The notes beneath the pieces were generated by a model that worked only from the letters and a program-made list of their open reading frames with translations, did not search any database and had not been told where the DNA came from. Positions 2,066 through 36,197 of a DNA stretch of 64,000 bases are shown here, in pieces. Source of the stretch: Candidatus Enterousia sp. (lineage in GTDB: Bacteria > Pseudomonadota > Alphaproteobacteria > Rs-D84); assembly GCA_045629645.1 (NCBI GenBank), contig JAZQRR010000034.1, positions 10,996-74,995 on the forward strand, read 5' to 3'. The position numbers were made by a program, and so were the translations under genes. The first letter of the stretch is position 1; the number at the start of each line of letters is the position of its first letter.

Positions 2066-2104
2066 AAAAAAATATAAAAAATCCCGCGATTGCGGGATTG
2101 TCTT
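2066..2104. terminator. Bidirectional rho-independent terminator between convergent genes
   Basis: Hairpin cccgcgattgcggg (stem cccgc/gcggg) flanked by an A-run and a T-run. It lies between the +strand yqaA-like gene and the first minus-strand paralogue. Confidence 0.6.
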
Positions 2105-2526
2105 TATTCGACCCAAATATCAGCATCTGCCGTTGTAGAGCCCTGCCCACCAGATGGAATCTTACCAAAAATACCATCTGTTTTGGCCCTTGTAACCTGA
2201 CCATCTGCAATCTTGTTTGTTGTTACAGCAGCATCTTTAATTTTTGTTTCTGTAATTGCATCTGTTGCAATTTTGTCTTCTGTTACATTTTGACTCAAAA
2301 TTTTATTCGTTGTAACAGCATCATCTGCAATCATTGCATTTTGGATTTGACCGGTTGTCATCTCACCGGTTTCACCAGTAACGACCGCCATATTTGCCGT
2401 ATCAAACTTTTTCACATTTGCAACAATCGTGTCAACATAAGCCTTGCTGGGAACAGCTGCACTGGCCACACCAGTAACACCGACCAATAAAACAGCCACA
2501 AAAAAAGCAAAAACACATTTATACAT
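2104..2526 (-). CDS. Secreted Ala/Thr-rich repeat protein, paralogue 1 of a 4-gene tandem family
   Basis: Sec signal peptide (MYKCVFAFFVAVLLVGVTGVASA). The N-terminal motif AAVPSKAYVD is shared with the next two genes. There are repeated AVTTNKI / D-KIATDAI units. Confidence 0.55.
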   Translation of the reverse strand: MYKCVFAFFVAVLLVGVTGVASAAVPSKAYVDTIVANVKKFDTANMAVVTGETGEMTTGQIQNAMIADDAVTTNKILSQNVTEDKIATDAITETKIKDAAVTTNKIADGQVTRAKTDGIFGKIPSGGQGSTTADADIWVE

Positions 2527-2672
2527 ATTCTACATTCCCACTGTATTGTAAAAGTTGCCTTTACAATTTTTATAATACAGCACCCATTTTTTATATCAGT
2601 TACAACAAGTTAATTCAGCTTATAAAATCCTGCCGTATGTTGGGGAAAACCCCCAACATACAAAAACCAGAT

Positions 2673-3731
2673 TTAGCGTGTAATCAGTTCCCAACCATAA
2701 GTTGTAACTTCCTGACCTTCTGCGTTCTGGGAAACGACCTTGGTCAAAACATATGTACCATTGTCGGATACTGACGCACCAGCAATACCTGTTTCAAAGC
2801 CCTGCAATGCTTCAATCGCAGCATCCTGTGTTGCCTGAGAAGCGTCCAATGCATCTACCTTATCTTCATATGCGATTGCTGCATATTTTGCAGCAGCATC
2901 TGACGCTGCTTCAGAAATAGCATCAGCCTTAGCGGTATTAACATCAGTCGTTGTCGCCATATCAGCAGTCTTTGTCTGTAATGCAGAAATCGCATCATCT
3001 TGTGTTTTCTGGGAAGCATCAACTTCTGTTTTTGTATAAACACTACCAGCATCTGCCTTGGCATTAATCTTAGCTTCCAATGCGTTTGTTTGTTCTGTCT
3101 GAGATTGTGTGAATGTTTCTGTCAAAACATAACTATTCAATGCAGAAGCATCCGCCTTGCCTGCAACTTCTGTTGCCAAGTCTGTAACTGTCTGAGAATC
3201 TGCCTTGGCACCCAACACATCTGTCAATCCGTTAACCTGAGATTGTTCAATTGTTGCAGATGTTGTGATTAAACCGTCAGCACCTGTGATAACAACTTTA
3301 TTTTCATTCCCTGTACCCTGATCCTTGTCAACCTTGCCTGCAACAGCTGTATCTGTTGGCAAGGCACCCAAAGCTTCTTTCAAACCATCAACCTGATCTT
3401 GTGAAATTACAGTAGAAACCTGCACTTTACCGGTTGCATCAGTTGTTACAACACCGTTTGTTGTTGCTTGTGTTGCCGCAACCTTGCCATCAATTTGTGA
3501 CTGCAAACTGCTGTCCGCCGCCTTGTATGCTACTTCAATTGCAGAATCAGCTGCCTGACGATCTGTAATTTCTTGTGCCAATGCAGATTGTTCTGCCTTA
3601 GATTCCAAACTTGTGTTAATACCACCAACCAAGCCATCAACATATGCTTTTGATGTAACAGCCGCGTCTGCTGCACCCATTACTGTCAATCCCAAGATTG
3701 ATGCAAATATACCTGCTGTTAATTTTTTCAT
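2673..3731 (-). CDS. Secreted coiled-coil/tail-fibre-like repeat protein, paralogue 2
   Basis: Signal peptide MKKLTAGIFASILGLTVMGAADA followed by AVTSKAYVDGLV. SKAEQSALAQEITDRQAADSA and QSQVNGLTDVLGAKADSQTVTDLATEVAGKADASALNSYVLTETF are shared almost verbatim with paralogue 3. Confidence 0.65.
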   Translation of the reverse strand: MKKLTAGIFASILGLTVMGAADAAVTSKAYVDGLVGGINTSLESKAEQSALAQEITDRQAADSAIEVAYKAADSSLQSQIDGKVAATQATTNGVVTTDATGKVQVSTVISQDQVDGLKEALGALPTDTAVAGKVDKDQGTGNENKVVITGADGLITTSATIEQSQVNGLTDVLGAKADSQTVTDLATEVAGKADASALNSYVLTETFTQSQTEQTNALEAKINAKADAGSVYTKTEVDASQKTQDDAISALQTKTADMATTTDVNTAKADAISEAASDAAAKYAAIAYEDKVDALDASQATQDAAIEALQGFETGIAGASVSDNGTYVLTKVVSQNAEGQEVTTYGWELITR

Positions 3732-3765
3732 TTTTTTCTTCCTTTCTTTCGTTTTGTTTTTTTAT

Positions 3766-4950
3766 TTAGAATGATTCTGATTCACCTAATTCCAGTTTTA
3801 ACCATGTTGGTGTCTTAGAATTTTTCTGAACACCCAATACACATGTTGTTTCAGCACAATCTGCTGGAACCGGCAATGTATAGTTCATAACGGCCTGGGA
3901 TGTTGCCAAACCTGTCGCACCATCTGCGATTGCCGCATCCGCATTAACTGCGATTGTATCTGTTGCGTTATCAACCTTTACATATGCATCACCAGAAGTA
4001 TATTCAATCGCTTCAGCAGTCGCAGTAATTATATTTGTCTCGGCATCAATTTCAATACCGTCACCCGCGGTCAATTTTGCCTGCTTTTTATCAATTTCTG
4101 TTTGCAAGCTATTATCTGCATTTGTACGATTTGTAATTTCAGCAGACAAGTCTGTCTGAGACGCTTTTGCATCAACAACTAACGACAAATTGTCCAACGC
4201 TGTTTGTGATGCCTTGCCCGCAACTTCTGTCGCCAAATCTGTAACTGTCTGAGCATCTGCTTTGCCCGCAATCTGACCAGCTAATTCAGTATCTTTGTTT
4301 TCCAAAGCTGTAATTTTATTATCTTGTGCCAACTGACCTGCACTATATGTTTCTGTCAAAACCCAATCTTTCAAGTCAGATGTATTTGCCTTGCCTGCAA
4401 CCTCTGTTGCCAAGTTTTCTAAATCAGCCTGAGCAGCCTTGGCACCCAACGCATCAACCAAACCATTAACTTGCGACTGTTCAATCACTGCAGCCGCTGT
4501 AATTGCACCACTTGCATCTGTTACAACAACCTTGTTTGCATTTTCTGTACCCAAGTTTTTATTCAATTTACCTTCAATCACACCTTCGGACGCCAAACCC
4601 GATGTACGTTCGATAACATAGTCAACAACATTCTGCGAACTTGCATCTGTTGGAATTGTACCAACATAAGTCTTTTCCGCTTTGGCATTAATCTGAGATT
4701 GCAAACTACTATCTGCACTTTCACGCGCCGAAGCTTCCGAAGCAATCTGCCCAGACAAAGCCTGATCTGCCGCTGCACGATCTGTAATTTCTTGATTCAA
4801 CACAGATTGTTCTGCCTTGGATGCAACCGCCGCTACAACTTTGTCATCAACATATTTCTTTGATGTAACTTCAACCGCCATCGCAGGTGCCACAACACCA
4901 CCCAAGATAACAGCCATCACGCCTGAAAACATAATATTTTTGATTGTCAT
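3766..4950 (-). CDS. Secreted coiled-coil/tail-fibre-like repeat protein, paralogue 3
   Basis: Signal peptide, then VEVTSKKYVDDKV and SKAEQSVLNQEITDRAAADQAL. There are two internal copies of LATEVAGKA(N/S). The C-terminus is Cys-containing and ends ...LKLELGESESF. Confidence 0.65.
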   Translation of the reverse strand: MTIKNIMFSGVMAVILGGVVAPAMAVEVTSKKYVDDKVVAAVASKAEQSVLNQEITDRAAADQALSGQIASEASARESADSSLQSQINAKAEKTYVGTIPTDASSQNVVDYVIERTSGLASEGVIEGKLNKNLGTENANKVVVTDASGAITAAAVIEQSQVNGLVDALGAKAAQADLENLATEVAGKANTSDLKDWVLTETYSAGQLAQDNKITALENKDTELAGQIAGKADAQTVTDLATEVAGKASQTALDNLSLVVDAKASQTDLSAEITNRTNADNSLQTEIDKKQAKLTAGDGIEIDAETNIITATAEAIEYTSGDAYVKVDNATDTIAVNADAAIADGATGLATSQAVMNYTLPVPADCAETTCVLGVQKNSKTPTWLKLELGESESF

Positions 4951-4975
4951 TGTTTCCTTCCTTTTTTCGTTTTTC

Positions 4976-5887
4976 TTAATTATTTGTTATCACGTTCGTT
5001 TGTGCATCTTCGACCACAACAGTCAAAGATTCCCACGATTTTTTATCCGCATCGTACACATACATCCCTGTACCCGCCGGTGCCTGCAATCCACCAGACG
5101 ACATTACTTCTAATCCTTCAACGCGTGCCGACAATTCATCCAATTCAGACTGTTCTGCCTTGGACGCCAAATCCGTTTTATCCGCTTTACCTTCCAACAA
5201 GGCACCAACAATACTGTTTACATAACCTTCAACAACCGAATCCAAGCCCTGAATTGCATCCTCTATCTTCGTCAAGCGTTCTTCTAAGTCTGTTACATCT
5301 TGAATACCGGAAACATTGATTTCAACCCCGTTAACCGTCAACCTTCCATCAACTTCATCAAATTCAAGACTGTCAACATCCTGTAATTTCTCTTTAACTC
5401 TTTCTAACTGGGCAATAACAGAATCTGCATTTTCAAACCCAACAAAGTCCTTGATATCATCAATATTATTTACAACATTGGTCAAATCCTGCTTAATATC
5501 CGAAATTTCATTTTTCACTTCCGTCACATCAACAGACGAACCACCAACAATTGGCTTTGAAACAGAACCTGTCGCCGCACTAGTCCCCGCCAGATAACGA
5601 CCGATTGACAAACGTGGCGTCGCAGCAGCACGCGACGAAGAAACACGCGTATTCGACAACGACCCCGAACCAGATGTAGTACGAGCCGCCCCAACACGGG
5701 TTGCGCCAGTTGCCCCATCAGACACACTTGTACCACCCGACTTGGCAGTAGCCGCACTGGCCGCACTGGAATACGTACCAGCACCACCCAACGAACGAAC
5801 CGAAGACGCCGCAAACGCAGGCATTGACATCACCGCACACAGTACGCTGACAATAGATAATGTTGATATTCTAAAATTATGTTTCAT
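4976..5887 (-). CDS. Secreted Ser/Gly/Thr-rich plus coiled-coil protein, paralogue 4 (divergent)
   Basis: Signal peptide MKHNFRISTLSIVSVLCAVMSMPAFA, then a low-complexity S/G/T/A region and a coiled coil. It shares the LEGKADKTDLASKAEQSELDEL motif with paralogues 2 and 3. Confidence 0.6.
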   Translation of the reverse strand: MKHNFRISTLSIVSVLCAVMSMPAFAASSVRSLGGAGTYSSAASAATAKSGGTSVSDGATGATRVGAARTTSGSGSLSNTRVSSSRAAATPRLSIGRYLAGTSAATGSVSKPIVGGSSVDVTEVKNEISDIKQDLTNVVNNIDDIKDFVGFENADSVIAQLERVKEKLQDVDSLEFDEVDGRLTVNGVEINVSGIQDVTDLEERLTKIEDAIQGLDSVVEGYVNSIVGALLEGKADKTDLASKAEQSELDELSARVEGLEVMSSGGLQAPAGTGMYVYDADKKSWESLTVVVEDAQTNVITNN

Positions 5888-5966: not shown

Positions 5967-6662
5967 TTAGAAATTATATTTCAAGCCAATAGATACACTA
6001 TTATCTAATATAAGCCCTATTTCATTTTTAAATTCATACCCATAGGTATCTATGCGCTTATGTTCTGTACCCATCAGTCCCGCCAAACGATAACGAATAT
6101 CTAATGTCAAATTATAATCCAATTTATGAGAATAACCCAACATCACACCAACAATTGGCGAAACCCTACTTTCTTTTCTGTCACCCCCAACAAAATAATC
6201 TCCATCTAATTCCGTTGTTGGCAATGCAATACCCGCACCTGCACCAACATACAAACCATTCAAGAAATCATAATATCCATTAAACATCAAATAAGGCACA
6301 GTCAGTTTAAAAGTATTTTGATGATCTTTATCTTCAAAGACACCTAACATACCAGCTTCAACTTCGCCACGCCAAAAAGCGTCAAAACTGTAACCAAAGA
6401 ACACATCTCCACCAAATAACACTTCGAACGAATATTTATCAGAATCCTTGTCACCCAATTCTGTATGTGAATATTCATTTTCCCAATTCATCATATTCAA
6501 AGACAAATGACCACCAATATACCATCCACTTTTTGCCTTGTCCGTATAATCATACGTTACATTATATGCACCAGCCCCCGTACGCTGAATATAGCTGGGT
6601 GCAGCATTTGCCGCAACAGTAGCCATAATCCCCATAAATGCATAGCCTAAAACTTTTTTCAT
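5967..6662 (-). CDS. Small outer-membrane beta-barrel protein (OmpA/opacity-porin-like)
   Basis: Start at ATG 6662..6660, preceded by a GGGAGG RBS. Signal peptide MKKVLGYAFMGIMATVAANA, alternating amphipathic beta-strands, and a C-terminal ...GLKYNF with terminal Phe. Confidence 0.6.
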   Translation of the reverse strand: MKKVLGYAFMGIMATVAANAAPSYIQRTGAGAYNVTYDYTDKAKSGWYIGGHLSLNMMNWENEYSHTELGDKDSDKYSFEVLFGGDVFFGYSFDAFWRGEVEAGMLGVFEDKDHQNTFKLTVPYLMFNGYYDFLNGLYVGAGAGIALPTTELDGDYFVGGDRKESRVSPIVGVMLGYSHKLDYNLTLDIRYRLAGLMGTEHKRIDTYGYEFKNEIGLILDNSVSIGLKYNF

Positions 6663-6801
6663 GACAATAATCCTCCCTAATTTTTTCATAAGTATATCAT
6701 AAAAACACATTAATTCCAAAACATAAAAAACATATATTGACATTTTTTTGCAAATTATGTTTAATTAATATTAACAAAAAAATTATTCAGGGAGTATCTT
6801 C

Positions 6802-7270: not shown

Positions 7271-8059
7271 ATGGAAGAAAGGACGACTATATCTTTTGCA
7301 AACGTTGCCGCACGATATGACGGCACCCCCGAGATATTAACCGACGTATCTTTTAATATCAGCGGTGGCGGCTTTTACTTTTTGTCCGGCGCATCTGGCG
7401 CAGGCAAAACAACACTATTACGTTTGATATACCAATTACACAAACCATCACGCGGCCAGATAAAACTGTTTGGCCAAACAACAAACAATTTATCTCGCGA
7501 TGAAATTACAAAACTGCGCCAAAAAATGGCTATTGTGTTTCAAGAATACTCTTTGCTCTCACATCTCAGTGTTTTTGACAATGTCGCCCTGCCCCTGCGT
7601 GTACGCGGTATCAGCGAACAAAAAATAAAAAAATTAGTAATCAAGGTTCTGGACTGGGTCGGATTGGGCAAATATGCTGAATCTAATCCAAAGGCATTAT
7701 CCGGTGGACAACAACAACGCGTATCTGTTGCGCGCGCCATTATTGTTCAGCCTGCTATCCTGTTAGCAGACGAACCAACCGGCAATTTGGACGATGAAAA
7801 CGCATCCCGCCTGATGGAACTGTTCATACAGATGAATAAAATGTTCGGCACAACAATTATCTTGGCAACACACAGCAAAAAACTGATGGACACGTACAAA
7901 TTCCCTGTAATTCACGTAGAAAATCATCGGGTTAATTTTACTGGCAAACAAAATAGCCCCACAAATACAGAACCGCCCAAGAAAATCTGGAAAGGTCCAA
8001 AACCACAAAATTATTTTACAGAACTATCAAAACAATTTGACGATATTGGGAACAAATGA
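7271..8059 (+). CDS. ftsE: Cell-division ABC transporter ATP-binding protein FtsE
   Basis: Walker A GASGAGKTTLL, ABC signature LSGGQQQRVSVARA, Walker B ILLADEPTGNLD. It overlaps the downstream ftsX-like gene by 4 bp. Confidence 0.85.
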   Translation: MEERTTISFANVAARYDGTPEILTDVSFNISGGGFYFLSGASGAGKTTLLRLIYQLHKPSRGQIKLFGQTTNNLSRDEITKLRQKMAIVFQEYSLLSHLSVFDNVALPLRVRGISEQKIKKLVIKVLDWVGLGKYAESNPKALSGGQQQRVSVARAIIVQPAILLADEPTGNLDDENASRLMELFIQMNKMFGTTIILATHSKKLMDTYKFPVIHVENHRVNFTGKQNSPTNTEPPKKIWKGPKPQNYFTELSKQFDDIGNK

Positions 8060-14500: not shown

Positions 14501-15445
14501 ATGAAATATTCTGATATGGGATTAGTAAACACAAAACAAATGTTCAAAAACGCATTAGAAAAAAAATACGCAGTACCTGCATTTAATTTTTATAATATGG
14601 AAACCTTAACCGCTATTTTGAACGCAGCACGCATAACACACAGTCCCGCTATACTGGCCGTATCAGAATCCGCATTAAAATATATGGGGCCAGATATGCT
14701 GATTGGTTTGATACGTGGCGCAAACATACAACCATCAGAACAAATCGCATTACATTTAGACCATGGCACAAATCTGGATATTTGCGAAACTGCAATAAAA
14801 CTTGGTTTCTCGTCAATAATGATTGACGCCAGCAAACTGACATTTGATGAAAACATTGCTATTTCAAAAACAGTTGCAACCTTGGCACATAAACATAACA
14901 TATCAGTCGAAGCAGAATTGGGCACACTTGGCGGAATTGAAGATGAAAACACATTTGGCACAACCAACTATACCAAACCTGCCGACGTAGAAAAATTTGT
15001 ATCTGAAACAAATATAGACTCTTTGGCAATCGCAATCGGAACCAGCCACGGCGCATACAAACGAAAAACCGCCGATGAAAAATTACGCTTTGATATATTA
15101 AAAGAAATTGAACACAGATTACCATCATTTCCACTGGTTCTGCATGGCGCATCACAAATACCACAAAACCTGATATCAGAAATAAACAATTTCGGGGGAA
15201 AGATTTCTGGCGCACTAGGCATCGATGATGAACAACTGCGACGCGCCACAGAAATGAATATATGCAAAATAAATATCGACAGCGACTTGCGTCTGGCATG
15301 CACCGCAGGCATCCGTAAATCGCTGGCAACAAAACCTGAAAACTTTAACCCGCGCGAATACCTATCAACAGCAACAGAAACAATGACCCAAACATGTATA
15401 AACACAATCAAAAATATTATGGGCAGTGAAAATAAATTAAATTAA
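14501..15445 (+). CDS. fba: Class II fructose-bisphosphate aldolase
   Basis: YAVPAFNFYNMETL..., LHLDHGT and AIAIGTSHGAYK motifs of class II (zinc) aldolases. Confidence 0.8.
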   Translation: MKYSDMGLVNTKQMFKNALEKKYAVPAFNFYNMETLTAILNAARITHSPAILAVSESALKYMGPDMLIGLIRGANIQPSEQIALHLDHGTNLDICETAIKLGFSSIMIDASKLTFDENIAISKTVATLAHKHNISVEAELGTLGGIEDENTFGTTNYTKPADVEKFVSETNIDSLAIAIGTSHGAYKRKTADEKLRFDILKEIEHRLPSFPLVLHGASQIPQNLISEINNFGGKISGALGIDDEQLRRATEMNICKINIDSDLRLACTAGIRKSLATKPENFNPREYLSTATETMTQTCINTIKNIMGSENKLN

Positions 15446-28037: not shown

Positions 28038-30851
28038 TTATTCTTTTTTCACACACTTGCCATTGGTTAAATCATAACCATCAACACACTTGGTTATTTT
28101 ACAAGCCGACCAATCGCGCCCCGCCCAAGTTTGTGTCGCACTTGCCGCATTTTCTGGCATATCTGGACAAGTTCTGATTTCAGGGTCACATTTTTTTCCA
28201 TCTGTATTCTTTTCATACATATTATCACATGCAACAACCATACAATCAGTATAAGTTCCATCTGCTTTCAATGTCTGCTTTGCGCTTTTTGCATTAGTGA
28301 TAGCACACTCAACCTCTTCCTTTAAACACTGGTTATTAATATTCTTATAACCTGTTCTACATTGTGAAATCACACAATCTCCCCAATTACTGCCGTTCCA
28401 AGTCTTTACTCCTTGGTCACCGTTATTATCCAGGCACCCCCGTGTTTCCGGCACACATTTATTACCATCTAAATTGTAATGATCTTTACATGTTGTTATC
28501 ACACAGCTGCCCAACGTACCATTTTCTATGGTTGCATACGCTTCTGCAACACCAACCAGATCTCCTGAACAATCAACCTTGGTTCTTTCTTCACATTTAC
28601 CATCTTTCAAGATATAACCATCATTACATGCTGTTGCAACACAAACACCATTCGAATTCTTGTAGCCAGATTTTGCATTAGATGGCAATTCACCCAACTT
28701 GCATCTTTGTTCTGTTGAAATATCTGCAGACCAGTTACGGATATCTGCAACACCAGCATCCAACAAACATTGTTCACGCATAGACGCTGAATTACCAGAC
28801 GCATTCAACGCAATATTTGCTGCACCAGAACCTGTACCATTCAAAATTTCATTTAATGTTACAACATTACGGCATGTATTCTTGGTGTAATCTTGATTAT
28901 TCGAACAACTGTTGCTATCCGCCACATCTATAACTGCCTTGAATTGTGCCGTCGAAGGATTACAAATCATTTCTTCATAACAATGCGGAACATTTGCAAT
29001 CTGGGCACAGTATGTTTTGATACGTGCATCAGGCCAGTTTGGTTCGCTGTCTGCTGTACTTTCATAACAGTCATAAATTTCACTTAAACATTCGTTAAAG
29101 TTCGTACCAGCCTCAATCGCAGCAGTCAAAATTTCTTCTTCTTCTTCTACTGCAAATTCCAGACGTTTTTGTTGCAAGGCTTGTTGTGCTGCAACCTTTT
29201 GATACGCAATATTTTGTGCAGTCGCACGCAGTTGTTCACCATACAAATCGCAATCTGCATTGGCGTCCAACAAATACTTATTCATAATACTGCGACGTGC
29301 ATCCGCAACAGGACCACGCAGATTTGAATAAGGATCCCCAGATGTTGTTGTATAACCAAAACATGACGCACTGGCATTTATAGAACCTGTTGATGTTGAA
29401 CCACGTTCATTCAACGCAATTTCACCAGACGCATTAACATCAATTTTGGAATTATAATTGAACGGACAATTAGAAGACTGACCGTTTGCACACTTGCCAC
29501 CGAACGATGCTGGCGAACCACAAGATTCATAAATACCATTAAAGCAAGAATCCAAGACACGACCACAAACTTCGTTATGCGCATGCGCAAACAGTTGATA
29601 CCCCCATGTATTTGCCAATGTATCTTTGGATTCTTCTGTAACTGACAAAGAAGACCCCAGCCCAGCCAATCCATTAACAACACCAGAAACACCTTCGAAC
29701 GCACTTAACAAAGAATCGTCATTATCTGTCAGGATTGTGATTGTATTTTCTTTGGCCTTGGCCCATGCCTGCAAGTTCGCCAAAATATCAGAACCACTAC
29801 CATTTAAATTCTTGATATCAAAACCAAAATTGTTATTTGAACAGTATTCAGGTTGATTACAAGAAGAAACAACACTTCCATTATTAAATATACCATGCGA
29901 CGAACACCAATCTACCGCCTCTTGCGAAGAAACGCCATGTTCATTTGTAACCTCGCGCCAGGAAACACAGTTCATAACCTGTTCTGCTTCGGTCAACTGG
30001 AACGCATCAGAAACATCTTTACCCCTGTTTGCAATCAACAATGCCAATTCACCAGACGCCTTGATTAATTCTTCATTTGCTGTTTCCAACGCTGCTTCTG
30101 CTTCTGCAAACGCGGTGACACGACCAGCGCATGCACAACGACGCTGTGCCTGATTACGTGCAGTACAAATTTCGTCCATACACGCATAATAAGATTCCAA
30201 ACAATTATTAAACGCATCTGTTGAAATCAAACCGGTTGTTGAATCGATAATATTTGAATAATTCCCCGTATATAATTTATTTGTCAGATAAGAATAAGTT
30301 GTACCACCGGAACTCTTAGAACCACGAATCGCACTACCCTGCAAAGAAACACGTGCAGCATCTGAGTCAACCGCTGTACGTGCACGCACATTACGATTAT
30401 TTGCCGCAGTTGTTCTGTTTGTAACAACCGCACTGCGCGAAACTACATTTCTTTTATTTTCTGTTTGTGCACGGGATGCAGTTGCACGTGAATTTGTTGT
30501 ACGTGACGCAACCGCACGTGTTGCCGCAGCACGAGTTGCATTTGCACGTGCATTACTTGCACGGGCTGTTGCTGTACGGGCAGATATTGCTGGTGTTGCA
30601 ACCGTTGTTCTGGCGACATTAGCACGCGCAGTCGCACGATTACGTGGACTTTCACGCAATGCCGCGCCACGCGCATTACCAGCCGCAACCTGCTGTTGCA
30701 TTAAAACCATCGGGTCATTAATTGGCGCAATTGGATCTGCCAACACAGTACGCATTGACACAAATGTCGAACAAACCAAGAACGCCCCCAACAACAGACA
30801 CGCTGTTCCAATTGCATTCTTAACAGAACTTACGATTTTTTGACTTATCAT
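28038..30851 (-). CDS. Large secreted cysteine-rich modular protein (937 aa)
   Basis: The signal peptide is followed by an Arg/Ala/Thr-rich low-complexity repeat (TARASNARANATRAAATRAVASRTT...). Then come a coiled-coil segment and about five C-terminal ~50-aa Cys modules of the pattern W-G--W--C-I--C--GY-L----C. Confidence 0.6.
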   Translation of the reverse strand: MISQKIVSSVKNAIGTACLLLGAFLVCSTFVSMRTVLADPIAPINDPMVLMQQQVAAGNARGAALRESPRNRATARANVARTTVATPAISARTATARASNARANATRAAATRAVASRTTNSRATASRAQTENKRNVVSRSAVVTNRTTAANNRNVRARTAVDSDAARVSLQGSAIRGSKSSGGTTYSYLTNKLYTGNYSNIIDSTTGLISTDAFNNCLESYYACMDEICTARNQAQRRCACAGRVTAFAEAEAALETANEELIKASGELALLIANRGKDVSDAFQLTEAEQVMNCVSWREVTNEHGVSSQEAVDWCSSHGIFNNGSVVSSCNQPEYCSNNNFGFDIKNLNGSGSDILANLQAWAKAKENTITILTDNDDSLLSAFEGVSGVVNGLAGLGSSLSVTEESKDTLANTWGYQLFAHAHNEVCGRVLDSCFNGIYESCGSPASFGGKCANGQSSNCPFNYNSKIDVNASGEIALNERGSTSTGSINASASCFGYTTTSGDPYSNLRGPVADARRSIMNKYLLDANADCDLYGEQLRATAQNIAYQKVAAQQALQQKRLEFAVEEEEEILTAAIEAGTNFNECLSEIYDCYESTADSEPNWPDARIKTYCAQIANVPHCYEEMICNPSTAQFKAVIDVADSNSCSNNQDYTKNTCRNVVTLNEILNGTGSGAANIALNASGNSASMREQCLLDAGVADIRNWSADISTEQRCKLGELPSNAKSGYKNSNGVCVATACNDGYILKDGKCEERTKVDCSGDLVGVAEAYATIENGTLGSCVITTCKDHYNLDGNKCVPETRGCLDNNGDQGVKTWNGSNWGDCVISQCRTGYKNINNQCLKEEVECAITNAKSAKQTLKADGTYTDCMVVACDNMYEKNTDGKKCDPEIRTCPDMPENAASATQTWAGRDWSACKITKCVDGYDLTNGKCVKKE

Positions 30852-31021: not shown

Positions 31022-32293
31022 TTATTGAACACCTACACTAAATTCATCCCCCCAACCGGCGACAGACTGCCCACCGATTACACAATTAATATCTTCAAAA
31101 CCATCTTCTATCTGATGTTTTTTGATAACACTGCTGGTAATCAGACCACCTGCAGTTCCCAAAACAACCCCAGCGATGGAATCCGACGCCAAACGTGCAG
31201 TATTAAACTTACCTTCTTCGTCTTTCCAAACACTTACTTTAAATCCAGATTCAATATTCTTCAAAACGTTTTCAGCCGCCAAAATTGCCTTACGCGACGC
31301 CGATGTATCCACCGGCGTTGCTGCTTCAACAACAACTGTTACCTCATCGCTTTTTGTACACATAGCATTAACTAAACCTTGAACAGCTGCTCTCGTTTCA
31401 TTAAATTTTCCAACTGTCAAATCTGACTTTTCACACAACGCCTCAAACTTAGAAATTTCCACAAGAACATCCTGCGATGCCTTACATTGCACCTTCCAGG
31501 CACTAATCGTAACCCCAACACTGTCATCACATTGATACGATGCGTTCTCTTCACCCTTGACATTACAATAGCCCTGCAAACCATCATAAGAAAATTCTTG
31601 ATTTTGACCGACACAAACACATTGTGAACCGTCCCACTTTGCAACCGATAACGACAACGAACAACACGCCTTACCCTCTGCCGTTGTACGCGAATCTACG
31701 CAAGAAGTTTTATTTTCCCCTGGCTTTGGAGCTGGCATTGGAGCAGGCTTTGGAGCTGGCATTGGAGCTGGCTTTGGATCTGGCACAGGCTGTGTCTGCC
31801 CAGGTTTCTGACCATGGTCATAATAACAAAAAGCATCCTTAGAAGTAGACGTATAATACTGACTAGCCATATGAACCTTCGCCAACGAATTCGGAACATA
31901 AATATCATAATTACCATGTGTAGTAATTAACCGTTTACCATCAGTAGTACTACACTTGTTTAAACTAGTAGCGCCAACCGAGGCCCATGCATTTCCACCG
32001 CTGGTCGAACATCGATATATACCCACATCATCTTTTGTTTCATTATCCCACACATGAACACCTGTAATAACCGCAAAAGCACCTTCTTCACAAGAACCAT
32101 CTTGAAAGCCACCACAAATCAAAGCCAAACCATTGCTATCTTTGTAATCAGCCAGCGTAGGAAACAAATATTCATTAGAAGACTTCCACGAACTCCACCC
32201 AATATTTAACACTTTTGAACAATTATAGTTATCTGCCACTGCACCGGATACACAACCAAACAAAACCAATACAGACAATAAAATCTTCTTCAT
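31022..32293 (-). CDS. Secreted cysteine-rich protein with a Pro-rich (PAPKPAPM) linker repeat
   Basis: Signal peptide MKKILLSVLVLFGCVSGAVA. The DNA carries the 24-bp repeat ccaaagccagctccaatgccagct, encoding PKPAPMPAPKPAPMPAPKP. There are ~20 Cys residues. Confidence 0.55.
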   Translation of the reverse strand: MKKILLSVLVLFGCVSGAVADNYNCSKVLNIGWSSWKSSNEYLFPTLADYKDSNGLALICGGFQDGSCEEGAFAVITGVHVWDNETKDDVGIYRCSTSGGNAWASVGATSLNKCSTTDGKRLITTHGNYDIYVPNSLAKVHMASQYYTSTSKDAFCYYDHGQKPGQTQPVPDPKPAPMPAPKPAPMPAPKPGENKTSCVDSRTTAEGKACCSLSLSVAKWDGSQCVCVGQNQEFSYDGLQGYCNVKGEENASYQCDDSVGVTISAWKVQCKASQDVLVEISKFEALCEKSDLTVGKFNETRAAVQGLVNAMCTKSDEVTVVVEAATPVDTSASRKAILAAENVLKNIESGFKVSVWKDEEGKFNTARLASDSIAGVVLGTAGGLITSSVIKKHQIEDGFEDINCVIGGQSVAGWGDEFSVGVQ

Positions 32294-35238: not shown

Positions 35239-36096
35239 TTAACTTGCTAAATCAAACAAACTATCATACTTAGTGCATATTGATTCTATTGCAGAATCAT
35301 CCGCATCATCCCATATATTTTTTTCACATTCTGCCTTTAACTTGCGTAAATTCTTGATATAATTATCGTATTCAGATGCATTTTCCTTGGCCAAGACAGA
35401 CAACTGTGAACGCAACAATTGATCACCCTGCAAAGACTTTTGACCTTCGACCTTGCCACCAATCAATTTATTTCCAAACAATTCCATTGCACCAACACCA
35501 ATACCTGCACCACCAACAACGCCACCAACAGTTCCCCACACACGCGCCGTCTTTTTAGCATCCAATATTCTCTGACGCAAAGTTTCTTCGTTCGCCCATG
35601 TTCCGCATGTTATACTGCGTCCCATTTCAAAATACTTACTTGGAATATCTGAAACATCAATTTTCGAATCGTTTGATTTTATATCAACCTTAACAAAACA
35701 AACATTATTTTCAGGTTCTTCCACGTCTTCTATCATCGTAGAATAATTATTCAAATTACTGTAACGTGACGCCCACACAAAAGTATTTCCCATACCAACA
35801 TTATTAGACATACATGCGTTACGTTCTTTTTCGCGCATATCTTTTTTAACCGCAGGAACCGCCTGTTCTGGTGTAATCGCCATACTACCAACTGCGATTG
35901 CCTGTTGCTGTGCCGAAACAGGGTTTGCCGTCATCGCCGCGGCCGCCAGTTGATTTTTCGATGCAACCACAGCACGAGCATCCGTATTAGTATAAGAATT
36001 TACCGACGCACGACCACGTGGATTATTCGGCGTCACCGCATCAGCAGCCCCCCCCAGAAACAAAATAGAAAAAAACACACTTATAAAATATTTCAT
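35239..36096 (-). CDS. Hypothetical secreted protein
   Basis: Signal peptide MKYFISVFFSILFLGGAADA. 285 aa with no recognisable motif. Confidence 0.45.
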   Translation of the reverse strand: MKYFISVFFSILFLGGAADAVTPNNPRGRASVNSYTNTDARAVVASKNQLAAAAMTANPVSAQQQAIAVGSMAITPEQAVPAVKKDMREKERNACMSNNVGMGNTFVWASRYSNLNNYSTMIEDVEEPENNVCFVKVDIKSNDSKIDVSDIPSKYFEMGRSITCGTWANEETLRQRILDAKKTARVWGTVGGVVGGAGIGVGAMELFGNKLIGGKVEGQKSLQGDQLLRSQLSVLAKENASEYDNYIKNLRKLKAECEKNIWDDADDSAIESICTKYDSLFDLAS

Positions 36097-36197
36097 ATCC
36101 TCTTCCCTTATTTGCCAATTCATTATACCACAAAAAGGCAAAAAAATAAAGCATTAATATAAATAAAAAAAAAGGGGCACACAGCCCCCTTGATATA

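What the first reader, a model, noticed from the sequence alone, without database searches (positions are those of the whole stretch)
2104..5887. Tandem array of four paralogous secreted Ala/Thr-rich coiled-coil proteins with shared N-terminal SKAYVD motif and tail-fibre-like repeats
Four consecutive minus-strand genes (140, 352, 394 and 303 aa) each begin with a Sec signal peptide. Three share the mature N-terminus A(A)V(T/P)SK(A/K)YVD. Paralogues 2-4 share SKAEQS-L-QEITDR-AAD. Paralogues 2 and 3 share near-identical blocks QSQVNGL-D-LGAKA...LATEVAGKA...VLTET. The composition and the KADxxDL / TDLATEV heptad-like repeats recall phage tail-fibre or trimeric-adhesin stalk repeats. Yet every member has a signal peptide and no phage genes are nearby. 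The C-termini are unique but each ends with an aromatic-acidic patch (IWVE, WELITR, LKLELGESESF). This looks like a lineage-specific, diversifying surface or secreted protein family, possibly an adhesin or antigenic-variation family.
Basis: seen in the sequence. Interest (0 to 1): 0.65.

Follow-up and report, generated by a model that had tools for sequence, protein, structure and literature searches.

The report
Hypervariable tail-fibre-like exported protein locus
An uncultured, small-genome gut bacterium (Candidatus Enterousia) carries a five-gene locus, conserved across its whole order, that encodes a small outer-membrane barrel and four exported fibre proteins built from phage-tail-fibre-like modules; two of the four differ sharply between near-identical strains, which makes the locus a good candidate for how these partner-dependent bacteria present a variable surface or attach to other cells.

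Summary
The four minus-strand genes are real and each product starts with a Sec-type signal peptide. They are not four simple paralogues. P2 and P3 are true paralogues (46% identity over 245 aa). P1 shares only the N-terminal SKxYVD cap. P4 shares only an 8-residue motif and a C-terminal hairpin module that is detectable at profile level.

The array is not a recent duplication. In 62 species-level genomes of the uncultured gut order Rs-D84 (Candidatus Enterousia and relatives), the same locus sits between pal-ftsEX and VTT-rbfA. It always begins with an OmpA/Opa-like 8-stranded barrel and a P4-class gene. When a P1-class gene (C-terminus IWVE) is present, it is always last.

No Pfam, NCBIfam or PDB family matches. 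The modules do match phage tail-fibre PHROGs and phage fibre proteins, yet no phage genes are nearby and no relatives occur in IMG/VR.

Among conspecific strains with 97-100% identical housekeeping proteins, P3 is 78-82% and P2 57-79% identical, with modules swapped between the two genes.

Best reading: a chromosomal, exported, probably surface-exposed fibre or adhesin set that diversifies by module shuffling. Surface location and function are inferred. The closest analogue is the Bdellovibrio MAT fibres, but membership is not met.

The parts
6691..6719 (-). Promoter-like site (TTGGAA-17-TATACT, TG before the -10) upstream of the OMP gene
   Evidence: Consensus scan. It lies 29 nt upstream of the ATG at 6662, which has a strong AGGGAGGA ribosome-binding site. 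This is a consensus match only.
5967..6662 (-). P5: OmpA/Opa-like small outer-membrane beta-barrel (231 aa), first gene of the locus. The mature N-terminal extension (aa 21-45) is conserved; the alternate loops vary.
   Evidence: PF13505, PF01389 and PF02462 are recorded on homologues. The AF2 model has pLDDT 80 and pTM 0.70. Foldseek against PDB gives OmpA TM domain at 3e-8, plus NspA, Ail, OmpX and OprG. A homologue lies directly upstream of the fibre genes in 62 loci. Differences between strains cluster in four alternate loops.
4976..5887 (-). P4 (303 aa): 'A' class, always the first fibre gene
   Evidence: More than 250 unnamed homologues. The first family gene is A-class in 62 of 62 loci. 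99% identical between strains.
5588..5809 (-). P4 conserved N-terminal region after the signal peptide (aa 27-100: SVRSLGGAGTYSS ... R ... R ... TPRLSIGRYL), proposed as an anchoring segment
   Evidence: Invariant columns V30 R31 S32 L33 G34 G35 G37 ... P91 R92 L93 S94 I95 G96 Y98 L99 in alignment A2. The anchoring role is inferred.
5159..5569 (-). P4 coiled-coil-like stalk (aa 107-243)
   Evidence: Hydrophobic periodicity of 3.5 and 3.67 exceeds 95% of shuffled maxima. Over residues 115-262, z = 8.8 at period 3.67.
5015..5068 (-). P4 C-terminal hairpin module 'J' (GMYVYDADKKSWESLTVV)
   Evidence: hhalign of class C-terminal alignments: P3-P4 97% probability, E 4e-11; P2-P4 90%, E 2e-6.
3766..4950 (-). 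P3 (394 aa): signal peptide MTIKNIMFSGV..., cap VTSKKYVD, modular stalk, beta-rich C-terminal part, J module
   Evidence: 78-82% identical between conspecific strains. Singleton at 90% identity among 15 billion proteins. Residues 158-270 are 38% identical to a mycobacteriophage virion structural protein, E 2e-6.
3769..3876 (-). P3 J module with conserved Cys pair (LPVPADCAETTCVLGVQKNSKTPTWLKLELGESESF)
   Evidence: Conserved across P3-class and many P2- and P4-class proteins. hhalign P2-P3 97% probability, E 1e-10.
2673..3731 (-). P2 (352 aa): signal peptide MKKLTAGIFA..., cap AVTSKAYVD, modular stalk, J module ...YGWELITR
   Evidence: Singleton at 90% identity.
3663..3731 (-). P2 signal peptide. 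Its first 9 residues, MKKLTAGIF, are invariant or nearly so across 73 genes.
   Evidence: Amino acids are fixed while third codon positions vary (entropy 1.0-1.6 bits at codons 5-10), so the constraint acts on the peptide.
3021..3548 (-). P2 hypervariable, mosaic central tract (aa 62-237)
   Evidence: Window and L001 share 97-99% nt identity in the flanks, but this tract does not align colinearly. P2 is 56.5% aa identical overall. 5-mer painting shows that tracts located in P2 here lie in P3 genes of other strains.
2676..2759 (-). P2 J module (GTYVLTKVVSQNAEGQEVTTYGWELITR)
   Evidence: The AF2 model shows a beta-hairpin at 326-351, the most confident part of a poor model. The motif [YWC]VL...[YF].WE.I.R is conserved in about 90 homologues.
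2104..2526 (-). P1 (140 aa): 'W' class, always the last fibre gene. It has the cap AVPSKAYVD, decapeptide repeats, and the C-terminal IPxG...IWVE tip.
   Evidence: A W-type gene is single and last in 46 of 46 loci that have one.
2164..2346 (-). P1 decapeptide (T-x-x-K-I-x-x-x-x-V) repeat region, aa 61-121
   Evidence: phrog_892 tail fiber 4e-12 and phrog_28766 1e-10. 9134 proteins match at E<=1e-3, many of them giant multi-repeat proteins, some with Peptidase_S74 or Decapeptide PF25296. tblastn matches cyanophage and Pelagibacter-phage tail fibres at 40-56% identity. Period-5 signal, p = 0.004.
2080..2099 (-). Intrinsic-terminator-like hairpin plus T-run, 5 nt after the P1 stop
   Evidence: No terminator-like site lies on the minus strand between the five genes. 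Intergenic gaps are 79, 25, 34 and 146 nt.

Best explanation
The region is the fibre part of a conserved chromosomal five-gene locus (OMP-P4-P3-P2-P1) of Candidatus Enterousia and the order Rs-D84.

**Shown**
- Each fibre protein has a Sec-type signal peptide and is built from modules that also occur in phage tail fibres.
- The termini are class-specific and conserved across the order.
- The locus has a fixed polarity. P4, with a unique conserved N-terminal region, is always first. P1, with the unique IWVE C-terminus, is always last. The genes in between carry an SKxYVD cap and a homologous C-terminal hairpin.
- The stalks of P2 and P3, and the alternate loops of the barrel, vary sharply between otherwise near-identical strains, and modules are exchanged between the P2 and P3 genes.

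**Inferred**
- After Sec export the proteins form fibres, probably trimers as their phage relatives do, held at the outer membrane.
- The conserved termini serve export, assembly and anchoring. One possibility is the P4 N-terminal region acting together with the co-encoded 8-stranded barrel.
- The variable stalks are exposed on the cell surface.
- Homologous recombination between the short shared blocks reshuffles stalk modules. This yields strain-specific surfaces for binding partner or host cells, for evading phages or immunity, or both.
- The route across the outer membrane is unknown.
For: - **Export.** Signal-peptide features are present in all four proteins and the barrel. A Cys pair is conserved in the C-terminal module.
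- **Fibre and phage-module nature.** P1 matches tail-fibre PHROGs, and longer orthologues reach 8e-33 on phrog_892. tblastn finds phage tail fibres and virion structural proteins. Relatives carry Peptidase_S74. AF2 predicts long helices broken by small hairpins (low confidence).
- **One conserved unit.** The same-strand order OMP to P4 to P3/P2 to P1 holds in 62 species-level genomes between the same flanking genes. Intergenic gaps are short and a single terminator follows P1.
- **Shared modules.** The C-terminal hairpin is homologous among P2, P3 and P4 by hhalign, at 90-97% probability. The cap is shared by P1, P2 and P3.
- **Diversification.** Four conspecific strains show Pal 97-100%, P4 96-100% and P1 89-100% aa identity, against P3 78-82% and P2 57-79%. 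P2 and P3 are singletons at 90% identity. Modules are exchanged between the two genes, a roughly 50-aa repeat varies in copy number, and one hybrid P3-N/P2-C gene exists.
- **Barrel variation.** Changes are confined to four alternate loops, as expected for extracellular loops.
- **Lifestyle.** Rs-D84 genomes are under 1 Mb, lack respiration and standard transporters, and are proposed to depend on a partner (PMC12306168).
Against: - There is no experimental or proteomic evidence for expression or surface location.
- No outer-membrane translocator is encoded in the locus. The barrel is of the small OmpA/Opa type, not a secretion pore.
- Trimer formation could not be tested. The monomer model of P2 is poor (pLDDT 43.5).
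- P2 and P3 lack canonical coiled-coil periodicity.
- All comparison sequences come from metagenome assemblies, so some mosaics could be cross-strain assembly chimeras. Against that, the longest exact P2/P3 match within a genome is only 18-26 nt, and three full loci lie on contigs of 6.7-130 kb.
- Conserved ends with a variable middle is the opposite of the usual adhesin layout, in which the tip varies.
Confidence: 0.55

Rival explanations
1. The proteins form a non-adhesive protective surface coat (S-layer-like or fibrillar). Its main role would be shielding or decoying against phages, predators or host immunity, and variation would be driven by evasion rather than by ligand binding.
For: It rests on the same evidence for export, conservation and strain-level hypervariability. 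The locus is present in essentially every genome of the order, as expected for a structural envelope component. Conserved ends with a variable middle suit a lattice or brush better than a tip adhesin.
Against: There is no similarity to any S-layer family in Pfam or NCBIfam. The modules are typical of receptor-binding fibres. Nothing here distinguishes this reading from adhesion.
Confidence: 0.15
2. The proteins are periplasmic or envelope-spanning structural rods. They would act as outer-membrane to peptidoglycan spacers or tethers, filling the Lpp / Omp-alpha role, working with the OmpA-like barrel and the neighbouring Pal and TolB.
For: The proteins have Sec signals, but the locus encodes no outer-membrane translocator. 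It sits next to pal, ftsEX and tolB. P4 has a real coiled-coil signal. Both the barrel's N-terminal extension, which by OmpA topology should be periplasmic, and the P4 N-terminal region are highly conserved.
Against: Strain-level hypervariability of P2 and P3 is hard to explain for periplasmic proteins. So is their homology to phage receptor-binding modules. Orthologues of 600-1468 aa would be far longer than a periplasm is wide, which is inference from general knowledge.
Confidence: 0.12
3. The locus is a remnant or domesticated part of a prophage, gene transfer agent or tailocin: tail-fibre genes that are loaded onto a particle.
For: The proteins match tail-fibre PHROGs and phage proteins. 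In the related contig L001, an integrase gene lies about 4.3 kb beyond P1, past VTT, rbfA, the GNAT gene, lepA and two small ORFs.
Against: Every member has a signal peptide. There are no capsid, tail, baseplate or terminase genes within about 10 kb. The housekeeping flanks are identical in 62 genomes. IMG/VR contains no relatives. The first gene is an outer-membrane barrel.
Confidence: 0.03

Closest known systems
Bdellovibrio bacteriovorus MAT (mosaic adhesive trimer) fibre superfamily (Caulton et al. 2024, PMC10769870)
   Same: Both are chromosomally encoded, carry signal peptides and resemble phage tail fibres. Both are mosaic families in a bacterium that depends on contact with other cells. 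Some relatives of the present family also carry Peptidase_S74.
   Different: MATs have a conserved beta-rich N-terminal domain of about 130 aa, and their C-terminal tips vary. Here the conserved parts are a short cap and a small C-terminal hairpin, the middle varies, and the window proteins have no S74 domain. The genes are much shorter, and they form one fixed-order operon behind an OMP gene instead of being dispersed. No sequence relationship was tested directly.
Phage tail fibres, including the segmented T4 long tail fibre (gp34-gp37; from general knowledge)
   Same: They share sequence modules: decapeptide repeats, G-x-V-L-T hairpin inserts and L..L...V..KA repeats. Like the T4 genes, these are consecutive genes for fibre proteins with conserved ends.
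   Different: Signal peptides are present here. There is no virion gene context, the chromosomal position is fixed across an order, and the family is absent from IMG/VR.
Trimeric autotransporter adhesins (YadA, BadA, AtaA)
   Same: Both are fibrous, repetitive surface adhesins of Gram-negative bacteria with Sec signals and modular stalks.
   Different: The window proteins have no YadA-type C-terminal anchor and no head or neck motifs, and Pfam finds nothing. The barrel is a separate 8-stranded protein.
Opa / OmpA / Omp25-type small beta-barrels with variable surface loops
   Same: P5 matches PF13505, PF01389 and PF02462 and folds like the OmpA TM domain, NspA and Ail. Its alternate loops vary between strains.
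   Different: P5 has a conserved N-terminal extension of about 25 aa, and it is always linked to the fibre genes.
Antigenic-variation gene families (Neisseria pilE/pilS, Borrelia vlsE, Anaplasma msp2)
   Same: Both have conserved ends and a mosaic variable centre, with variation generated by recombination between related copies.
   Different: No silent, promoterless cassettes were found in the window. All copies are complete genes with ribosome-binding sites. Within-genome P2/P3 DNA identity is only about 74%. Only variation between strains is shown, not switching.

Membership tests
Bdellovibrio MAT fibre superfamily | N-terminal signal peptide | tested here: met
   All four proteins have a K/R n-region, a hydrophobic core and A-x-A sites.
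Bdellovibrio MAT fibre superfamily | Conserved beta-rich domain of about 130 aa directly after the signal peptide (PMC10769870) | tested here: not met
   P1, P2 and P3 have only a cap of about 12 residues followed by variable sequence. P4 has a low-complexity conserved region of about 75 aa. AF2 predicts a helix after the P2 cap.
Bdellovibrio MAT fibre superfamily | Variable C-terminal tip domains, with or without Peptidase_S74 | tested here: not met
   The C-termini are small, class-specific, conserved hairpins. The window proteins have no S74 domain.
Bdellovibrio MAT fibre superfamily | Intertwined trimeric fibre displayed on the cell surface | not testable with these tools
   Only monomer AF2 was available (pLDDT 43.5). 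There are no localisation data.
Trimeric autotransporter adhesins | C-terminal YadA-type membrane anchor (PF03895) and head, neck or stalk motifs | tested here: not met
   No Pfam or NCBIfam hits for P1-P4 or for longer orthologues.
Phage tail-fibre gene module (prophage, GTA or tailocin) | Sequence similarity to tail-fibre families | tested here: met
   P1 hits phrog_892 at 4e-12 and an orthologue reaches 8e-33. tblastn matches tail fibres.
Phage tail-fibre gene module (prophage, GTA or tailocin) | Embedded among tail, baseplate or capsid genes, or found on viral contigs | tested here: not met
   The flanks are GNAT, rbfA and VTT on one side, and pal, ftsEX, plsC and tolB on the other. The IMG/VR scan found no relatives.
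Canonical coiled-coil proteins (heptad or hendecad) | Significant 3.5- or 3.67-residue hydrophobic periodicity | tested here: inconclusive
   Met for P4 (about residues 107-156 and 186-243; z 8.8 over residues 115-262). Not met for P2 or P3, globally or in 35-aa windows. AF2 still predicts long helices, at low confidence.
Cassette-based antigenic variation systems | One expression locus plus silent partial donor cassettes | tested here: not met
   No further paralogues lie in the 64 kb window. All copies have start codons, ribosome-binding sites and signal peptides. The rest of the genome was not examined.
OmpA/Opa-like 8-stranded outer-membrane barrels (for P5) | Small beta-barrel fold, terminal aromatic residue, Pfam OMP_b-brl | tested here: met
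   PF13505 is recorded on homologues. The AF2 model has pLDDT 80. Foldseek top hits are OmpA, NspA, Ail and OmpX. The protein ends ...GLKYNF.

The most novel reading that the evidence does not exclude
The locus may encode a segmented, multi-protein surface fibre assembled end to end in gene order, a cellular counterpart of the T4 long tail fibre built from Sec-exported parts. In this reading the barrel and the unique N-terminal region of P4 form the base. Each C-terminal hairpin module (on P4, P3 and P2) docks the SKxYVD cap of the next protein (P3, P2 and P1). P1, with its unique IWVE end, is the distal tip. The fibre would be the organelle by which these partner-dependent, reduced-genome bacteria recognise and hold on to other cells, and shaft modules would be swapped between strains.

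What fits: the A-class gene is first in 62 of 62 loci, and the W-class gene is single and last in 46 of 46. The window has three hairpin-bearing proteins and three cap-bearing proteins, offset by one gene.

What weakens it: the YVD module also recurs inside shafts, and one genome merges the P4 and P3 classes into a single 1468-aa protein.
Probability: 0.15. Interest if true: 0.8.

Novelty: new variant of a known kind. Interest (0 to 1): 0.62.

Why it matters
Candidatus Enterousia and the order Rs-D84 are widespread in human and animal guts and have never been cultured. Their genomes are under 1 Mb and lack respiration, most biosynthesis and standard transporters. They are therefore thought to live off partner cells, but no attachment machinery has been described (PMC12306168).

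This locus is present at the same position in essentially every genome of the order. It has no annotation in any family library, is built from phage receptor-binding-type modules, and is the fastest-varying part of the region between strains. That makes it the obvious candidate for the cell-cell or cell-host interface of the group. It also gives concrete targets for antibodies, FISH-coupled imaging, binding assays and strain typing.

More generally, it would be a second, independent case after the Bdellovibrio MAT fibres of a bacterium using tail-fibre building blocks on its own surface. It would differ in layout: conserved ends, a shuffled middle, a fixed gene order and a dedicated small barrel.

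Tried and rejected
- **Family libraries.** Pfam and NCBIfam scans of P1-P4 gave nothing above noise. Pfam scans of long orthologues also gave nothing.
- **PDB sequence and profile searches.** Searches with P1, P3, the P2 alignment and the P4 alignment returned only sub-threshold coiled-coil noise.
- **AF2 model of P2.** With a 10-sequence alignment the pLDDT was 43.5, too poor for a fold search. Only the secondary-structure trend was used.
- **Recent gene conversion inside this genome.** Rejected. P2/P3 DNA identity is 74%, the best tract is 54 nt at 91%, and the longest exact match is 18 nt.
- **Tandem DNA repeats.** None of note.
- **Further paralogues or silent cassettes in the window.** None found.
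- **Nucleotide-level conservation of the P2 signal-peptide region** (a possible recombination or RNA element). Rejected, because synonymous sites vary freely.
- **Ala-Asp N-terminal peptidoglycan-linking motif** (a recalled Brucella OMP feature). Considered for the 'GAADA' ending and dropped. The consistent A-x-A cleavage across the family leaves varied mature N-termini.
- **Rosetta-stone fusion** as support for an end-to-end chain. The 1468-aa protein in L005 is a hybrid with one anchor and one hairpin, with no internal hairpin-plus-cap junction.
- **Prophage reading.** Rejected.
- **Exact look-up of the window's P2 on contigs.** It found no record.

Full report
**1. The observation**

ORF listing confirms four consecutive minus-strand genes at 2104-2526 (P1, 140 aa), 2673-3731 (P2, 352 aa), 3766-4950 (P3, 394 aa) and 4976-5887 (P4, 303 aa). 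Each product begins with one or two K/R residues, a hydrophobic core and A-x-A-type cleavage sites.

All-against-all BLASTP gives these relationships:
- P2 and P3 are genuine paralogues, 46% identical over 245 aa, E 1e-46.
- P1 resembles P2 only across the signal peptide and the SKAYVD cap (38 aa, E 1e-6).
- P4 is not significantly similar to the others.

At DNA level the P2/P3 similarity is old. It is 74% over 209 nt, the best tract is 54 nt at 91%, and the longest exact match is 18 nt. There has been no recent gene conversion inside this genome.

Hydrophobic periodicity typical of coiled coils is significant only in P4, at about residues 107-156 and 186-243. P2 and P3 show none. P1 shows a period-5 signal from its decapeptide repeats.

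**2. What surrounds it, and whose genome this is**

Directly upstream on the same strand lies a 231-aa outer-membrane barrel (5967-6662). Its true start has a strong AGGGAGGA ribosome-binding site. The gaps between the five genes are 79, 25, 34 and 146 nt. The only minus-strand terminator-like hairpin sits 5 nt after P1, and a promoter-like site precedes the barrel gene.

The flanks are housekeeping genes:
- GNAT, rbfA and a VTT-domain gene on one side.
- pal/OmpA-family, ftsE, ftsX, DUF218, plsC and tolB on the other.
- Further along the window: fba, dnaN, an AsmA-family gene, a pseudouridine synthase, uvrC, dnaJ and gyrB.

A scan of one genome per species found 75 related loci. Nearly all are from Candidatus Enterousia or uncultured gut Alphaproteobacteria MAGs. 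This is the GTDB order Rs-D84. Its members are uncultured gut bacteria with genomes under 1 Mb, without respiration or standard transporters, and are proposed to depend on a partner (PMC12306168).

**3. A conserved, polar locus rather than a duplicated array**

Searching the ORFs of those loci with P1-P5 shows the same same-strand order in 62 genomes: barrel, P4-like, P3-like, P2-like, often P1-like. The flanks are the same too, DUF218-ftsX-ftsE-pal on one side and VTT-rbfA-GNAT on the other.

The four proteins represent four orthologous classes, each with its own conserved signal peptide and termini:

| Class | Signal peptide | Mature N-terminus | C-terminus |
|---|---|---|---|
| P4 | MKNELKISTLSIVCVLCA | invariant SVRSLGGAGTY...PRLSIGKYL region | hairpin module |
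| P3 | MKVKNIMFSGF | IASKxYVD cap | P.P..C....CVLS...W..T.P.E |
| P2 | MKKLTAGIFA | SKxYVD cap | ...[YF].WE.I.R |
| P1 | variable | IASxGYVD cap | IPxG......IWV[EQ], at the very end |

Profile-profile comparison shows that the C-terminal hairpin modules of P2, P3 and P4 are homologous. The scores are P2-P3 97% probability (E 1e-10), P3-P4 97% (E 4e-11) and P2-P4 90% (E 2e-6). The P1 terminus is unrelated.

Module HMMs give a strict polarity:
- The first family gene has the P4 anchor-type N-terminus in 62 of 62 loci.
- An IWVE-type gene is single and last in 46 of 46 loci that have one.
- The 38 complete loci hold 3-6 family genes.
- The most common layout is the one in the window.

Some species have up to seven or eight fibre genes of 300-1468 aa. 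One long shaft contains a collagen-like tract.

**4. What the proteins are made of**

Pfam, NCBIfam and PDB sequence searches find nothing. PHROGs and phage genomes do:
- P1 residues 22-116 match the tail-fibre families phrog_892 (4e-12) and phrog_28766 (1e-10).
- Longer orthologues reach 8e-33.
- The P1 decapeptide repeat matches 9134 proteins in the representative library. Many are giant multi-repeat proteins, and some carry Peptidase_S74 or Pfam's Decapeptide repeat.
- tblastn finds cyanophage and Pelagibacter-phage tail fibres at 40-56% identity.
- P3 residues 158-270 match a mycobacteriophage virion structural protein.

The family itself is absent from IMG/VR viral contigs.

AF2 on P2 gives a poor monomer model (pLDDT 43.5). 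It shows long helices interrupted by small beta-hairpins and a C-terminal hairpin. I used it only as a secondary-structure trend.

The barrel models well (pLDDT 80). It resembles the OmpA TM domain, NspA, Ail and OmpX, which are small 8-stranded anchors or adhesins, not translocators.

**5. Variation**

| Protein | aa identity to the window across four conspecific assemblies (L001, L077, L078, L079; each covers only part of the locus) |
|---|---|
| Pal | 97-100% |
| FtsX, DUF218, PlsC, TolB, RbfA | 99-100% |
| P4 | 96-100% |
| P1 | 89-100% (all changes in a roughly 75-nt patch covering the signal peptide) |
| P3 | 78-82% |
| P2 | 57-79% |

At 90% identity the window's P2 and P3 are singletons among 15 billion proteins. 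P4 and P1 fall in clusters of 7 and 8.

Painting homologues with 5-mers from the window's P2 and P3 shows how the stalks differ:
- Tracts that lie in P2 here lie in P3 genes elsewhere (P0009, P0011-14).
- Other strains have an entirely different P2 centre.
- A repeat of about 50 aa occurs in one to two full copies, depending on the strain.
- Two alternative P2 C-terminal knobs exist.
- One contig carries a hybrid gene with a P3 N-terminus and a P2 C-terminus.

In one strain the barrel is only 76% identical. The changes are confined to four alternate loops, while the turns between them and the N-terminal extension are unchanged. That is the pattern expected for extracellular loops.

The P2 signal peptide MKKLTAGIF is invariant or nearly so in 73 genes, while synonymous sites vary. 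The peptide itself is therefore constrained.

**6. Interpretation**

*Shown:* the proteins are exported; they are built from tail-fibre-type modules; they form one conserved chromosomal unit with a small barrel; the termini are conserved and class-specific; and the P2 and P3 stalks and the barrel loops are reshuffled or replaced between strains.

*Inferred:* the proteins form fibres held at the outer membrane. The conserved termini serve export, assembly and anchoring, and the variable stalks face outward. The function would be contact with partner or host cells, evasion, or both. I put this at 0.55.

*Rivals:*
- A non-adhesive coat (0.15).
- Periplasmic spacers or tethers (0.12). This fits the missing translocator and the Pal/TolB neighbourhood. 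It fits poorly with the hypervariability, the phage receptor-binding modules and orthologues of up to 1468 aa.
- A phage or GTA remnant (0.03).

The polarity of the locus also allows a more novel reading: an end-to-end segmented fibre in gene order (0.15). It is weakened by YVD modules recurring inside shafts and by a genome in which the P4 and P3 classes are merged into one protein.

**7. Comparison and novelty**

The closest functional analogue is the Bdellovibrio MAT fibre family (PMC10769870). Both carry signal peptides, resemble tail fibres and are mosaic. The defining 130-aa N-terminal domain and variable C-terminal tips of MATs are not met here, so I do not file these proteins as MATs. 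The features of trimeric autotransporters and of cassette-type antigenic variation systems are also not met.

I found no paper describing this family, and all homologues are unnamed or 'hypothetical'. I rate it a new variant of a known kind: a bacterium using phage-fibre modules on its own envelope.

**Caveats**

All comparison data are metagenome assemblies. Localisation, oligomeric state and the outer-membrane crossing route are untested.

Noticed in passing
window 2452-2526 (P1 signal-peptide coding region) vs L001 11209-11285: Between two strains whose mature P1 is 100% identical, a patch of about 75 nt encoding the signal peptide is replaced (MYKCVFAFFVAVLLVGVTGVASA versus MNKNTFAFIGFALVAFAVDVAAA). 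The sequence on both sides is identical, which looks like a short recombination tract.
   Followed up: partly
window 3705-3731 and P2-class genes in L001-L076: The first nine residues of the P2-class signal peptide (MKKLTAGIF) are invariant or nearly so in 73 genes, while third codon positions vary freely. The P3 and P4 classes have their own conserved signal peptides. This is unusual for Sec signals and hints at a dedicated recognition step.
   Followed up: partly
window 5967-6662 vs L078 1352-2062: In one conspecific strain the barrel protein is only 76% identical although Pal and P1 are 100% identical. The changes cluster in four alternate loops (about aa 65-80, 113-118, 155-167 and 203-212). 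The N-terminal extension (aa 21-45) is nearly invariant across the order but modelled with low confidence.
   Followed up: partly
window 14501-15445 (+): This is an intact class II fructose-bisphosphate aldolase gene (PF01116, E 1.9e-93). A recent survey states that Rs-D84 genomes lack fructose-bisphosphate aldolase (PMC12306168).
   Followed up: no
window 28038-30851 (-), 31022-32293 (-), 35239-36141 (-): Three further proteins begin with signal-peptide-like hydrophobic N-termini. The two that were scanned, at 28038-30851 and 31022-32293, have no Pfam match. The 937-aa protein has an Arg/Ala/Thr-rich region (aa about 55-165) that resembles the P4 N-terminal region in composition, followed by Cys-rich repeats. 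The 423-aa protein is Cys-rich with a PAPMPAPKPAP linker.
   Followed up: no
L005 6803-11209: In one species the P4 and P3 classes are replaced by a single 1468-aa protein. It has the P4 anchor N-terminus, a collagen-like GPQGPQGEKGEKGEPG tract, many repeated shaft modules and a P3-type C-terminus.
   Followed up: partly
window about 2635-2662 (-), P2-P1 intergenic: A 12-bp GC-containing hairpin (TGTATGTTGGGG/CCCCAACATAC[A]) lies just after the P2 stop, with only a weak T-run after it. A promoter-like site follows at 2572-2599. P1 may be partly uncoupled in transcription from the upstream genes.
   Followed up: no
L077 (Logan SRR25159589 contig, 2336 nt) 1330-2316: This is a hybrid gene with the N-terminal two thirds of P3 fused to the C-terminal third of P2. 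The junction lies in the shared ...KANASDLKNWVLTETY block. It is either a real unequal-crossover allele or an assembly chimera. The contig ends 20 nt after the stop, so the downstream context is unknown.
   Followed up: partly
window 7271-8059 (ftsE) vs L001 5722-6513: ftsE is only 91.6% identical in nucleotides between the two strains, whereas its neighbours are 97-99%. This is a local divergence patch outside the fibre locus.
   Followed up: no
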